Part shown: positions 230 to 43,134 of the stretch, piece after piece
Numbering within the stretch: the stretch's first letter is position 1
How the letters are laid out: each line of letters begins with the position of its first letter
NCBI GenBank assembly: GCA_951406725.2
Contig: OX597831.1
Location: 40,920,001 to 40,984,000, forward strand
Origin: Octopus vulgaris
Taxonomy: Eukaryota
DNA: 64,000 bases
Direction: 5' to 3'
The notes under the pieces: generated by a model
What the model was told of the DNA's origin: nothing
The model's database searches: none
What the model saw: only the letters and a program-made list of their open reading frames with translations
Made by a program: the position numbers and the translations under genes

Positions 230-720
230 GCGGACTCTGGGCACATGGTCTAATCAAGACGCTGGTACAAGAAAAGTCACGAGAAAAAACATCGTATATA
301 ACGCAGAAGTAACAGCAACGCTTCAAGATAACCTAACCGAAAGGAAAAATTACATCTGATTATGGGAAGGCGACTTCAAACGACATTATGCAAACCACCT
401 ATCTTCTTTCCAATACATCGACAAAAGTAAAACCACTAAGTTGACTGCAAAGACCAACTGCACACCACAAACAATCAAATGGAGAATTGTAGAGAAATCT
501 ATGTCATATGTTAATGGGTCTAAGAAATGCAACTTACGAGTAGCTGAAAGATCCTATATTCTTTTTAGATCTAAGAAGTCCACTGCACTACTGAATTCCA
601 GATCCGAAATTTTCAGCGTATGTAAACATATAGACAAATTTCTTTTGGCAAACAAGAAGACCGCACCATCTCTGATGATTTCAAAATACGAAGAAACACG
701 ACTGAGTTGTCAGGTTCTTT
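230..720 (+). mobile_element. Penelope-like element remnant: C-terminal GIY-YIG endonuclease (decayed) plus 3' HHR
   Basis: Joined frames read NIVYNAEV...KNYI*LWEGDFKRHYANHLSSF...IKWRIVEK...KKCNLRVAERSYILF...LLNSRSEIFSVCKHIDKF. This is the PLE GIY-YIG end with CxLCxxEK/CxH motifs, carrying a stop and a frameshift. Confidence 0.85.
668..715 (+). ncRNA. Type I hammerhead ribozyme motif
   Basis: atct-CTGATGA-t-ttc(aaaatac)gaa-GAAAC-acgactgagtt-GTC-aggt; stem I atct/aggt, stem II ttc/gaa; lies at the 3' end of the PLE endonuclease homology. Confidence 0.75.
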
Positions 721-761
721 GTATACATAAACAAATATATCCCCACTACTGTTTGGTATGT

Positions 762-992
762 AGAGAGGCGTCACTTAGGGATAGCGTGACGCATTTATGA
801 TCGTAAGATAGTGGTTTCGATTTCTGGAGCTGCTGGGGAGCAGCTGTGTTTTTCAGCAACACACTTCATTTCAAGCTGCTCCAACCCACTCAGCTTGCAA
901 AAATAAGTCATTCTGTGGCACCCTACTCAGATGGGAAATATATGTTACAGAATCTAGGAAATCGGTCTTAGGAGCCTATGGTTCAGGGAGAA
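762..992 (+). mobile_element. Degenerate tRNA-derived SINE (group C relative)
   Basis: B-box-like ggtttcgatt; body resembles the 57121-57425 copy and the tail resembles the 46197-46500 copy. Confidence 0.6.
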
Positions 993-2381: not shown

Positions 2382-3506
2382 ATATACATATAAATATATA
2401 TATATACACATCCATATATATATATCTGTGTATGTATATGTGTGCGCGCGTGTGTGTATGTATACGACGAGCTCCCACGCAATTTCCGTCTACCTAATTC
2501 CCTCAGAAGTTATTGGTCAGCCTTGTATATATATATAAGGTTCGCATGTGTGTGTGTGTCTGTGTGTGTCTGTGTTTGTCTGTCTGTCTGTATGTATGTA
2601 TGTCTGTATGTATGTAAGTATGTATGTATGTATATGCGTATGTGTGCGTTTGACATATTTAAAGTTCTAAAGGCAAATTCATTGCAGTTACCTTGCAAAA
2701 AATAATCTCTTTTATGGTAAAAAAAAAAAGTATAAAAACACCATGTCCTATTTACCATAAGAGGGAAATTTTTTCCTCTTCGCTCACTGCTATAAATTTG
2801 CTGTCAGAAGTTGAAATATGGCACAAATATATTTTGACTGACCTATAGTTCGCTTTTGTCTATTCAGTACTTGGCGGCAATACTTCTAACACACACACAC
2901 TCATATATACATCGTTGTAATTTGAGGCGGTCATTTTTTTTTCGCCAAATACACGCATTATATATTTTTTCTTCACTCGTTTATTACTGTTCTAATTTTA
3001 TTATTTTAATTCATGTCCATTGTCCAGAAATCTTTCGTCACACATATGCGACCTCTTCAACGGCTTTTTGTATGTTCTTGCTCCACTGACTCCATTCTGT
3101 TCTTCCAAGGTATGTATCCTTATATGTGCATGTATTTGTGTCCTTGTTTGTGTGTTTGTGCGTGGGTGTGTATACGTGTGTTTGTATGCTTGTGTGTGTG
3201 TGTGTTCTTTTTCTTTTTTTAGCAGCCTTTTTTAGCCTTCTTCTCGGCATCCTTATCCTCTCACCCCGTTGTGCTGCTACTGTCATAAGACCCCAAAATA
3301 TGGTACAGTTCCTGTATTCCTCTCTGTATATGTGTTCAACTACGTGTTGTCATTGTGGTAGTTGTTGTTATTGCCATCGCTGTCTCCGCCGCTGCTGCTG
3401 ATGTTAATTGTGTTGTTGACATTGTTGTGGCCGTCTGTGACATTTCTTGTGTGTGTGTGTGTGTGTGTGGGTTCGCTTCGTATGTTGTATTATCCATGCC
3501 CTCAAC

Positions 3507-3661: not shown

Positions 3662-4692
3662 AGGCACTGTTTTGGGACCACCACTGTTCATAATGGCCCT
3701 CCCAGACATGCCCTCAGCCACACAGAGGGCCACGATCACAAGTTATGCAGATGATACAAAAGTTTCACAGGTAATGCAGAACCCTGAAGACACTATGCAC
3801 TTGCAATGTGAGCTGGACGAAATATACAAGTGGGTTGAAAAGAAAAGCATGCAGTTTAATGCTGAAAAGTTTCAAGCTTTGTGCTATCAGCATGCATAAC
3901 TAAATGCAATGCCCATTAAATACACTGGACCTGGAGGGATTGCAATCACAAAGGCACAGTCAGTGCGAGACCTGGGCATTTACATGAGTAATGATGCATC
4001 CTTTCATATACATGTTGCTAAATTAGCAACAAGAACAAGAGATCAGGAAACTATGATGGTCTTCTGGAGGACACTTGTCTTAAGCCACTTTGACTATTGC
4101 TCTCAGTTATGGTCACCAACCAGTGTCAAATTAATCTCAGAACTTGAGGCAATCCAACGAAGCTACACGAAGAATACAGCCTCTATGCAGCATATAAGAT
4201 ATTGGGAAAGACTCAAGAGATTAAGACTCTATTCCTTAGAGCGTAGGCGAGAAAGATATGCCATAATATACATCTGGAAGATCCTGGAAGGACTTGTCCC
4301 AAACTTTGGCATCGAGAGTTACACAAATACTAAAAATGGGCGCCACTGCATAGGGCCAAGAACTCCAAATTTGCCATCAAGATGTAGGACAAGATACTGA
4401 AATAGCCTGGGCTTCAGAGGTCCACAGCTCTTCAATATCCTCCCGAAGGACCTGAGAGACCTACATGGGGTGGATGTAGGTGTCTCCAACTTGAAGCTGG
4501 ACCTCTTCCTGTCAAGTGTCACAGATGAATCAACTTCGCAGCATGGGGTGCAGATGATAGCAGCTGAATCAAACTCTCTCATGCATCAATTGTCAATTCC
4601 TAAAAACATTCGTAAAGTAAAACCATGTAGCAACACCAAATGGCGGTGCCCCAGCATGGCCACAGCTCGTGAGTTGAAACTAAATAAGATTT
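3662..4692 (+). mobile_element. 5'-truncated CR1/L2-group LINE, RT C-terminal half, pseudogenised
   Basis: GTVLGPPLF, YADDTK, FNAEKFQ, VRDLGI, HFDYCSQLWSP, LEAIQR, ERLKRLRLYSLERRRERY; in-frame stops near 3899 and 4400; 3' hairpin tail. Confidence 0.9.
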
Positions 4693-8554: not shown

Positions 8555-9148
8555 ACATATGACTGCGTGTTTCTGACATGGTCACCTCATCTCCGCAATG
8601 GTTGGTCTCCGAGAATGAGCCTTTAATCTACTTTGAAAATAGCTGCTTCAATGGATATGTAATTAATTAATTGATTAATTGATTAATTAATTAACCAAGA
8701 TATCTACACACTACATTGAGAGAGTCTCGATGTGGTCAATAATTTCTCAGAAATAGTAAGTAAAATACCTTGTCATACTGAGACACTGGCATAGTCGTAA
8801 AGACCAGAAATTCACTTTGTGACCCTTTGGTTACGTGTTCAGTCCCACTATGCAGCACTTTGGGAAAGTGTCTCCTACTGTAGACCCTGTGCCGACTGAT
8901 GCCTGGGGAATGAATTTGGAAGACAAAAACTGGGTAGAACCGGTCTTGTATGCATATATCGCGGTTCACCTATCGCAATTTATTATTGCTTTGCTGTTGT
9001 TTTGCATTTATGATAAAATAAATATATACAAATTATGAAAATAATTTTTTTTAAATACAGTACAATACTGCTTTTTCTTCACGGATTTTCACCTATCGGG
9101 CTGGGTATGGAAACGTAACACCCGCGGTAGTCGAAGAATTACCGTATA

Positions 9149-9210
<62 letters not shown>

Positions 9211-9215
<5 letters not shown>

Positions 9216-9767
9216 GAAATATTAAAATAACTAAGTCTCTCTAAAAGAGAACAGCGGCAGCGTTCCCGGAAAATAATAGTTATCGCCATACTAATATAGC
9301 ATTCTTATAAAAATAAGAAAAAGCTGTCCGCTTATTAGCTCCATGAGGCCATCGCCTTAAGTTAGCTATTTGATACACGAACTGTATCCATATAACCTTC
9401 GAACAAGGGAGGTCAGTCGCTCCACACTACTTGACCGGCATATAGGTGTCGCTTCCGACAATCTCTGTTCGATGGTTTTATTTACCTAGTTTCGGTGGAA
9501 TACATCCACTTGTTTTCAATAATAGAAATATTAAAATAACTAAGTCTCTCTTAGTCTCTCTCGCTGCATTGAAAAGGGGCAATACTCCGAAACGCGTCTG
9601 TAGCTGCCGGTCAAGTAGTGTGGAGCGACTGACCTCCCTTGTTCGAAGGTTATATGGATACAGTTCGTGTATCAAATAGCTAACTTAAGGCGATGGCCTC
9701 ATGGAGCTAATAAGCGGACAGCTTTTTTCTTATTTTTATAAGAATGCTATATTAGTATGGCGATAAC

Positions 9768-9773
<6 letters not shown>
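9211..9773 (+). mobile_element. ORF-less fold-back PLE-type module with HHR, inserted in (TA)n
   Basis: Inverted repeat 9273-9440/9605-9773 (1-nt indel only); direct repeat taatagaaatattaaaataactaagtctctct at 9211 and 9520; HHR in the spacer; (TA)n on both sides. Confidence 0.8.
9563..9604 (+). ncRNA. Minimal hammerhead ribozyme with U3-A8 variant core
   Basis: gctgca-TTGAAAA-gggg(caata)ctcc-GAAAC-gc-GTC-tgtagc; stem I 6 bp and stem II 4 bp (each with one G-U). Confidence 0.75.
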
Positions 9774-9821
<48 letters not shown>

Positions 9822-41917: not shown

Positions 41918-43134
41918 CGGAGACATAACAGAAGTAAATAGACACCCTTATAATTACTAAAATGTATTTAAATCTGAAATTATACATTCAAATTATTTAT
42001 TATTTATTATAATGTCAATACTTATTATTTAGTAGACGTGCCCTTTGCATTTTTCAATTCAGGGATGCTATAAAACACGCTCCTGATCAGATGACGAATA
42101 TTCTCTTCAGGAATTTCTTACCAAGTTTCATGTGGTAATCTCAAAAGATCCGGCTTTGAGGATGCGTTCTTGTTCTTTTTATGACGTGTCCTGTCCATTA
42201 TGTCCCAGACGTGTTCAATAGAGTTTATATCTGGTGACTGGCCTGGTCATAGAAGCTTTTTGATGCCATTCTTTTCCAACCTATCTTGGGTCGTTTTAGC
42301 TGTGTGACAAGGATTCCCATCTTCCATAAATAAAGAGTCTTCTTTAATCATTTCACCATTGGAGAAGATTGGAATGAACCCTTTCTGCAATATGGACATA
42401 TATTTACCTGGGTTTATGTTTCTATCACACTCTACCAACCCTGATTGACCATTGTTCCAAATTGCTCCCCAGACAATCACAAAATAGCAGGCCTGTTTCA
42501 TTGTTGGCAGCAATCTTTTCATGTCGAATTCTTGATCACAGAGTCTCCAGAACCACACTCGACCACTGTCAGAAAATACATCAGGGAATATGATAGTGTC
42601 CCAAAGTGCTGGTGGCCTTTCCACTCTTTTGTCCGCTTGATGTTGGCTGGTTGAAGAAGTGGCTTCCTTCTTCCTGCTCTGCCATAGTAACCAAGTTTGT
42701 GGAGATACCCGACAGCTCTTCTGGGACTGATATCAAATTGTTCTACTATGTCAGAGGACTTGCAACGAGGATTATCCTCCACACTTCACTCAACAAAGAG
42801 AAGGGTCCCGTCAGAGGGCCCCTATTGATCTGGATGAGGTGATGTGGATTCTTTCCCATCTCTGGTGGGAATCACTCTATTAGCTGTAGAAAGCAGGATC
42901 CCTAGGTTTTCTGCGGTTTTACATACACTAAGTTCACTTTTGGATTGCTCCACAATACGGCCTCTTTGAAATTCAGACAGTTAGAAGGTTTATTTTATAC
43001 ATGACATGATAGAATAGTCACATGTAGAACCAAAAGCATAAAAATGTCAATTAATAAAAGTACAAATCATTTCAAGTTAAAATAAGCATAGAAAACAGAG
43101 TTTATTAAGTGTCTATTTACTTCTGTCATCTCTG
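41918..43134 (-). mobile_element. Full-length but decayed Tc1/mariner transposon
   Basis: TIRs (cggagacataacagaagtaaatagacac/gtgtctatttacttctgtcatctctg) with TA flanks; motifs RRKPLL, VIVWGAI, FMEDGNPCHTAK, PGQSPDINSIEHVW; frameshifts and stops. Confidence 0.9.

What the first reader, a model, noticed from the sequence alone, without database searches (positions are those of the whole stretch)
9211..9773. U3-A8 compensated hammerhead inside a near-perfect 168-bp fold-back
Seen: the core reads TTGAAAA instead of CTGANGA, with intact stems I and II and GAAAC-gc-GTC; the flanking arms differ by one base, so the insertion is young. Established: C3-G8 is a tertiary Watson-Crick pair and U3-A8 swaps can retain activity. 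Inference: the double change is covariation, not decay, so the ribozyme was probably under selection and would be missed by canonical pattern searches.
Basis: partly seen in the sequence, partly recalled or inferred. Interest (0 to 1): 0.7.

Follow-up and report, generated by a model that had tools for sequence, protein, structure and literature searches.

The report
U3-A8 hammerhead retrozyme, Penelope-type insertion
This is one truncated copy of a 362-base non-coding repeat with over 900 copies in this genome, whose predicted self-cutting RNA carries a rare but already published base-pair swap, and whose mirror-image arms are likely the footprint of a Penelope-type jumping-gene enzyme copying one RNA onto both sides of a DNA cut.

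Summary
The core is TTGAAAA (U3 9569, A8 9574), and the arms 9273-9440 and 9605-9773 differ by one homopolymer indel. The locus is a truncated, mirror-image insertion of a 362-bp tandem hammerhead repeat (non-LTR retrozyme type) in (AT)n. U3-A8 is family-wide: 925 of 926 genomic copies, none C3-G8. Two sister subfamilies (about 77-86% identical) keep U3/A8, change N7, and keep a palindromic stem III with three different centres, so selection on a dimer-type hammerhead is likely. No C3-G8 relative of this lineage was found, so the swap itself is not shown as an event. Natural U3-A8 cores are already in print (PMC3088659; PMC4209133, about 1,300 hits). The fold-back is not a terminal repeat. It is two divergent arms ending at fixed unit positions, about 175 and 238, one per arm in 54 of 56 scorable insertions. 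A young RT + GIY-YIG element here shows the same rule (15 of 15) but shares no sequence, so the partner is unproven. This copy lacks the distal stem I and a second hammerhead, so it is probably a weak ribozyme. Cleavage and expression are untested. The scan had already noted what is probably this family, and this signature, elsewhere in this genome.

The parts
9143..9209 (.). (AT)n microsatellite target, left flank (left edge approximate)
   Evidence: 67 of 76 ends of bipolar insertions sit in (AT)n
9210..9440 (-). Left arm, first pass: unit positions 238 to 7; outer end is the long ('T') end
   Evidence: L001 1211-1441, 98.3% to the L030 unit; 231/231 identical to a unit of array L207
9210..9272 (-). 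63-nt tail (unit 176-238), present on this arm only
9441..9442 (.). 2-nt insert at a 54-nt deletion (unit 315-362 plus 1-6) that removes the left arm's hammerhead
9443..9551 (-). Left arm, second pass: unit 314 to 206. Its last 33 nt repeat 9210-9242, which explains the direct repeat
   Evidence: (D11)
9552..9561 (.). 10-nt filler resembling the preceding bases, at the head-to-head junction of the two arms
   Evidence: templated-insertion reading is inferred
9562..9773 (+). Right arm: unit 326-362 then 1-175, 5'-truncated; outer end is the short ('S') end
   Evidence: L001 1563-1774
9563..9604 (+). Type I hammerhead motif: stem Ia, core U3 U4 G5 A6 A7 A8 A9 (9569-9575), stem II with loop CAAUA, GAA, palindrome ACGCGU, predicted cut after C 9598. 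The 5' strand of the distal stem I and the UAC bulge found in intact family units are missing
9273..9440 (-). Left half of the 168-bp fold-back (unit 175 to 7)
9605..9773 (+). Right half of the fold-back (unit 7 to 175)
9774..9821 (.). (AT)n microsatellite target, right flank

Best explanation
The locus is a truncated, two-armed copy of a 362-bp protein-free tandem repeat (an animal non-LTR retrozyme) whose U3-A8 hammerhead is predicted to cut multimeric transcripts as a dimer, and which was likely inserted into (AT)n by a Penelope-like element's enzyme copying one RNA from two fixed internal start points. Shown: unit length, copy number, family-wide U3-A8, (AT)n targets, head-to-head arms, one short and one long end per insertion, arms sharing a haplotype, and arms running through the cut site for up to ten units. 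Inferred: transcripts are cut at GUC by paired hammerheads joined through the ACGCGU palindrome; monomers are probably ligated to circles, as shown for coral, mussel and axolotl retrozymes. A Penelope-type RT/GIY-YIG protein then nicks both strands of (AT)n and primes cDNA at about position 175 on one side and about 238 on the other; the two cDNAs are joined head-to-head by microhomology or filler, which creates the fold-back. This particular copy is probably a poor ribozyme and a dead end.
For: Unit of 362 bp in tandem arrays. 925 of 926 copies U3-A8. Three subfamilies with stem III palindromes ACGCGT, ACATGT and ACTAGT. On 14 hand-picked copies, 94.6% of cells pair, 4 pairs change on both sides, and the covariation score is 0.287 against at most 0.069 for slid controls. 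Cofolding two family hammerheads gives the intermolecular 6-bp helix III, -70.3 against -64.2 kcal/mol for two monomers. The circular monomer folds at z = -5.5 against 100 shuffles. End rule: 33 of 33 clean bipolar insertions in the first set (56 elements, 38 bipolar; p 2e-10) and 21 of 23 in a pre-registered second set (35 elements, 27 bipolar). Arms of one locus differ by 0.61% against 1.54% between loci, and 9 rare variants are in both arms. A young element with a 1312-aa RT + C-terminal GIY-YIG-like ORF has the same (AT)n, head-to-head, short/long-end rule, 15 of 15 scorable loci, 56-nt tail. Literature: PAc cleaves and extends both strands and starts RT at two internal sites that delimit the tail (PMC11167929). 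The tail is often at only one end of a PLE insertion (PMC8557442; PMC3846280). Retrozymes relate to PLE pLTRs (10.64898/2026.07.22.740005).
Against: No autonomous element with sequence homology to the unit was found among three PLE-like families examined (30, 29 and 1 reference 3' region). The signature-matching element has a 56-nt tail, not 63, and different end sequences. No genomic trace of cleavage: 5' truncations at unit 1-8 were 7 of 106 in the first set but 1 of 64 on replication. 75 of 84 rare variants covered by both arms are in one arm only, and 80 of 91 rare variants in multi-pass arms are not in all passes. That fits later mutation but gives little positive support for a single circular template. 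In at least two loci the arms carry different stem II variants (L005; C1:2663612 versus 2663830). In the shuffle control, the number of pairs with a two-sided change was not above chance (359 of 500 shuffles reach it). In PAc, hammerhead cleavage is dispensable for insertion in vitro, and only 1 of 9 Xenopus retrozyme dimers cleaved.
Confidence: 0.75

Rival explanations
1. The unit is only the pLTR of an undiscovered autonomous Penelope-like element. Tandems come from uncleaved linear multimeric transcripts, the hammerhead is little used, and no circle is made.
For: Insertion footprint is that of PLEs. PAc insertion does not need hammerhead cleavage. No truncation peak at the cut site on replication. 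Thousands of PLE-like fragments exist and only the top 150 candidates of each search were scored.
Against: In the 89 stretches mapped the family sequence occurs as 362-bp units or parts of them, and no PLE-type ORF continuous with the unit was seen (one chance 148-aa frame overlaps a unit in L059). The hammerhead is of the canonical-retrozyme build, with distal stem I, rather than a minimal PLE hammerhead.
Confidence: 0.15
2. One reading: this copy is itself an active, selected monomeric ribozyme embedded in a functional fold-back.
For: All core nucleotides and stems Ia and II are intact, and the MFE fold of the whole + strand keeps stem Ia and stem II formed at the base of the fold-back.
Against: Stem III is 2 bp around a 2-nt loop. 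The distal stem I and bulge are lost, the left arm's hammerhead is deleted, and the fold-back recurs with variable junctions in 65 of 91 mapped elements, so it is an insertion by-product.
Confidence: 0.05
3. U3-A8 is a fixed, weakening or dead mutation pair carried passively by a satellite-like repeat.
For: Two sites staying unchanged between subfamilies about 80% identical is not unlikely by itself (roughly 0.64, my estimate). No activity data.
Against: All 12 core positions are shared by the three subfamilies while N7 changes, and stems and palindrome change in a compensated way. U3-A8 cores are reported active in vitro (as stated in PMC3088659).
Confidence: 0.05

Closest known systems
Metazoan non-LTR retrozymes (Cervera and de la Pena 2020, PMC7229834, parts 2-4 of 6 and passages read; Li, Clavereau and Pollet, bioRxiv 10.64898/2026.07.22.740005, parts 1-3 of 5 read)
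   Same: Protein-free tandem unit of 150-450 bp (mussel 350-390), GC below 45% (41% here), one type I hammerhead per unit with short palindromic helix III, strongly self-paired predicted circle, coexistence with PLEs.
   Different: Core is U3-A8, not C3-G8. In the parts read those papers do not describe head-to-head two-armed insertions with fixed paired ends. Expression, cleavage and circles are shown there and untested here.
U3-A8 minimal hammerheads of Cercyon PLEs in Schistosoma mansoni (Cervera and de la Pena 2014, PMC4209133, parts 1-2 of 4 read) and natural U3-A8 hammerheads (Perreault et al. 2011, PMC3088659, passages read)
   Same: Same core swap, missed by canonical descriptors, type I, dimer-type helix III, PLE association.
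   Different: There a minimal hammerhead (long helix II, short helix I, mostly single heterogeneous motifs). Here a 6-bp stem Ia plus distal stem I, a 4-bp stem II and near-identical tandem units.
EN+ Penelope-like elements: PAc of Anolis (PMC11167929, parts 1-2 of 4 read), Penelope/Neptune/Naiad architecture (PMC8557442, PMC3846280, passages read)
   Same: 5' truncation, inverted 5' copy, partial tandems, AT-rich or (TA)n targets, a tail at one end delimited by two RT start sites.
   Different: No ORF. Tail is 63 nt rather than 30-40. The strict one-short, one-long pairing is quantified here (54 of 56); PAc in vitro showed no start-site difference between strands.

Membership tests
Type I hammerhead ribozyme | Three helices around core Y-U-G-A-N-R-A, GAAA, NUH, with a Watson-Crick 3-8 pair | tested here: met
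   U3-A8 instead of C3-G8
Type I hammerhead ribozyme | Structure conserved by compensatory changes | tested here: met
   4 pairs with two-sided change, score 0.287 against at most 0.069 slid; three subfamilies only, hand-picked rows; the 3-8 pair itself never varies
Type I hammerhead ribozyme | Match to an Rfam hammerhead model | tested here: not met
   no hammerhead family listed
Type I hammerhead ribozyme | Self-cleavage 3' of NUH | not testable with these tools
   needs in vitro assay; genomic truncation signal not replicated
Non-LTR retrozyme | Tandem units of 150-450 bp, one hammerhead each, at least two consecutive | tested here: met
   family arrays of 362-bp units, up to 10 full units in one arm; this copy alone holds one hammerhead
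Non-LTR retrozyme | No protein coding, GC below about 45-50%, self-paired monomer | tested here: met
   no PLE-type ORF in the unit; GC 0.41, circular fold z -5.5
Non-LTR retrozyme | Expressed as unit-length linear and circular RNA | not testable with these tools
   only assembled contigs were available, which cannot tell a circle from a tandem
PLE-mobilised non-autonomous element | Head-to-head inverted 5'-truncated arms, (TA)n target, tail at one end | tested here: met
PLE-mobilised non-autonomous element | Sequence homology to the pLTR of an autonomous PLE | tested here: inconclusive
   none in three families examined; most PLE candidates unscored
MITE / fold-back DNA transposon | Fixed terminal inverted repeats with constant internal structure | tested here: not met
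   arms have unequal fixed outer ends and variable inner junctions and unit numbers

The most novel reading that the evidence does not exclude
A U3-A8 dimer hammerhead releases a 362-nt circle. A Penelope-type enzyme dimer binds that one circle asymmetrically, so that its two active sites always start at different fixed points (175 and 238) on the two ends of one (AT)n cut and roll round the circle. This single step would explain PLE inverted ends, the one-sided tail and retrozyme tandems together. The same genome would then use three different Watson-Crick pairs at hammerhead position 3-8 (C-G, U-A and A-U) in different families.
Probability: 0.35. Interest if true: 0.6.

Novelty: new member of a known kind. 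Interest (0 to 1): 0.3.

Why it matters
The core swap itself is old news, so the highlighted point adds one more family with a U3-A8 hammerhead. The practical lesson is that CTGANGA descriptors and Rfam miss a family of more than 900 young copies. The more useful part is the insertion footprint: a strict one-short, one-long end rule shared by a protein-free hammerhead repeat and a young intact Penelope-like element in the same genome. It supports the proposed but unshown mobilisation of animal retrozymes by PLEs and gives a small RNA and a candidate enzyme for the published PAc-type in vitro assay. The scan has already recorded this pattern many times in this genome, so this window adds little beyond replication.

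Tried and rejected
(1) Truncation at the cut site as a genomic sign of cleavage: 7 of 106 arm ends at unit 1-8 (expected 2.3, nominal p 0.009, below the scan-level 95% bound of 10), then 1 of 64 in the pre-registered replicate. Rejected. (2) Expression: no RNA holder listed; 20 of 21 listed runs hold the unit, but none is on record as RNA, and all 8 runs laid were contigs. This is no evidence either way. One contig going back 362 bases cannot tell a circle from a tandem. (3) Autonomous partner: a decayed GIY-YIG-like family (30 loci of 12,144 candidates), a Neptune-like family (29 loci of 19,246) and a young intact family (3' region of one copy; 4,718 candidates) show no homology to the unit. 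A Pfam accession recalled from memory was not in the library. (4) Rfam: no hammerhead hit. (5) MITE or fold-back transposon: rejected. (6) A C3-G8 ancestor: none among 926 pattern matches or 77 aligned hammerheads; the pattern fixes the stems, so diverged relatives were not covered. (7) Literature: Przybilski and Hammann 2007 and Lunse et al. 2016 are not held, so I saw them only as cited in PMC3088659 and PMC6765202. Searches and passages turned up no description of this family. I read no supplements, and those of PMC7229834, PMC4209133 and Lunse et al. may list it. (8) Sequence look-up in the scan's own notes returned nothing, but word look-ups did.

Full report
Observation. The sequence is as described. 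A type I hammerhead-like motif spans 9563-9604: stem Ia GCTGCA/TGTAGC, core TTGAAAA at 9569-9575 (U3 = 9569, A8 = 9574), stem II GGGG-CAATA-CTCC, GAA, the palindrome ACGCGT and C17 at 9598. The arms 9273-9440 and 9605-9773 align over 169 columns with no mismatch and one gap. The motif sits in the spacer between the arms. Rfam reports nothing in the window at gathering score and no hammerhead family at relaxed E-values.

What the locus is. A search of the own genome (G000, 2.8 Gb, unnamed) gave 220 matches from 40 of 511 candidates, many spaced 362 bp apart. Taking one natural unit from array L030, numbered from the base after GUC, the window reads as follows: (AT)n; left arm on the minus strand, unit 238 to 7, a 2-nt insert, then unit 314 to 206; a 10-nt filler; right arm on the plus strand, unit 326-362 then 1-175; (AT)n. 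The fold-back is the stretch 7-175 that both arms share. The left arm lost its hammerhead through a 54-nt deletion. The right arm begins at 326, so it lacks the 5' strand of the distal stem I and the UAC bulge that intact units have. The left arm is identical over 231 of 231 bases to a unit of an array on another contig (L207), so the insertion is young. The one-base arm difference is a homopolymer indel and is not a clock.

Is U3-A8 decay? No. A pattern free at positions 3, 7 and 8 finds 926 copies (reversed control 0). One has C3 with A8 and none has a base other than A at 8 with U3, so 925 of 926 are U3-A8 and none is C3-G8. Because this family is about 99% identical (median 98.9%), that alone does not show selection. 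Loose ends in run contigs led to two sister subfamilies, fetched by tail motifs (972 and 142 matches; the first pattern also catches some copies of the window's own subfamily). Their segments are about 79-86% (one 32-nt piece 91%) and 77-87% identical to the unit. Among 77 de-duplicated hammerheads spanning the core (of 97 profile hits; 20 partial hits dropped), 54 are of the window's subfamily, 13 of B and 10 of C. All keep U3 and A8, N7 is A, U or G, and stem III reads mainly ACGCGT, ACATGT or ACTAGT, each self-complementary. On 14 hand-picked copies the named structure has 94.6% paired cells, four pairs with two-sided changes and a covariation score of 0.287, against at most 0.069 when slid. 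The count of two-sided pairs is not above shuffles, and the rows represent only three lineages. Cofolding two intact hammerheads yields the intermolecular helix III of the dimer model. So the fold is likely under selection as a dimer ribozyme. The 3-8 pair never varies inside the lineage, so its covariation is inferred from outside. Other families in this genome carry C3-G8 (L105, L130, L203) and apparently A3-U8 (22 of 29 copies of a Neptune-like 3' end).

How it was inserted. In 56 elements from the first pattern hits on C1 and C2, 38 are head-to-head. In all 33 with both outer ends clean, one arm ends near 175 and the other near 238 (p 2e-10 against independence); 5 had an unscorable end. 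A pre-registered second set gave 21 of 23, with two long/long cases, one a 143-bp fragment, and 4 unscorable. 67 of 76 ends lie in (AT)n. Arms of one locus are more alike than arms of different loci (0.61% against 1.54%; 35 loci), and 9 of 84 rare variants are in both arms. Arms cross the predicted cut site freely, up to ten full units. Inner junctions cluster at a TTCGAA palindrome near unit 38-46 (14 of 106, then 5 of 64). [quoted passage not shown] It shares no significant sequence with the unit in the 1,400 bases examined. This matches published PLE behaviour: two internal RT start sites delimiting the tail, with both strands cut and extended (PMC11167929), and an inverted 5' copy with a tail often at one end (PMC8557442; PMC3846280).

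Mechanism. Shown: family structure, core, conservation pattern, target and end rule. Inferred: dimer cleavage of multimeric transcripts, circle formation by a host ligase as in other retrozymes (PMC7229834), and copying by a Penelope-type enzyme from two starts onto both ends of one cut, with the cDNAs joined head-to-head. Against: no homologous autonomous partner; no replicated truncation at the cut site; most rare variants are private to one pass or arm; PAc does not need its hammerhead in vitro; 8 of 9 Xenopus retrozyme dimers did not cleave.

Comparison with what is known. Natural U3-A8 hammerheads were reported in 2011, with the statement that such cores had been shown active in vitro (PMC3088659). 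About 1,300 were found in S. mansoni PLEs in 2014 (PMC4209133). Non-LTR retrozymes and their proposed PLE origin are published. My searches found no paper on this family, but two key papers and all supplements were unseen. The scan's own notes, seen only after my end-rule result, describe what is probably this family and the same signature elsewhere in this genome. They are not independent support.

Verdict. A real, family-wide U3-A8 hammerhead in a young retrozyme-type repeat: a new member of a known kind. This copy is a truncated, probably weak example. Interest 0.3.

Noticed in passing
L209-L238 (e.g. L135, about 220 bases 3' of the ORF at 2700-3401 minus): An abundant Neptune-like PLE family (Pfam GIY-YIG hit; 19,246 candidates) has a hammerhead-like fold after its ORF with core ATGAATA, i.e. 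A3-U8, in 22 of 29 copies and a palindromic stem III. G12-A13-A14 is often altered, so it may be decayed. A literature search with the term A3-U8 listed no paper containing it among the five shown.
   Followed up: partly
L270 1263-5198; family loci L240-L289: Young, intact Penelope-like element: 1310-1312-aa frames with an N-rich insert, about 4.6-kb tandem period, (AT)n target, paired short/long ends 56 nt apart. Its 3' region has CTGATGC followed by a stem and GAAA, an atypical hammerhead-like core that I did not analyse.
   Followed up: partly
L030 736-923, run X11 record 10: One 194-nt contig (depth 7.7) has 25 differences, with A>G dominating that run's list (21 places) on the hammerhead-sense strand. 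This looks like A-to-I hyper-editing of double-stranded RNA such as fold-back copies would make. Single contig; the run is only guessed to be RNA.
   Followed up: no
window 360-800 (+): Decayed C-terminal fragment resembling a PLE GIY-YIG endonuclease (assignment recalled from motifs; no Pfam hit), with 12,144 genomic candidates. Unrelated to the retrozyme.
   Followed up: partly
L105 760, L130 771, L203 1118: A separate repeat with a canonical C3-G8 minimal hammerhead (CTGACGA core, palindrome ACGT).
   Followed up: no
window 48871 (+) and 36613 (+): Two weaker hammerhead-like pattern hits (CTGATGA and TTGATGA cores) from a relaxed scan; may be chance.
   Followed up: no
G000:C1:2663830: The only family copy among 926 with C3 opposite A8, a natural single mutant.
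   Followed up: no
L116 3084-6503: A 1140-aa LINE-like ORF (endonuclease-like start, read from motifs) lies between two parts of a retrozyme array; L189 ends on the same flanking sequence as L116's first part, suggesting this LINE inserted at unit position about 317 in both.
   Followed up: no
window 3900-4400 (+) and 42247-42732 (-): Fragments resembling a LINE RT C-terminus and a Tc1/mariner transposase (recalled from motifs; no matching Pfam family).
   Followed up: no
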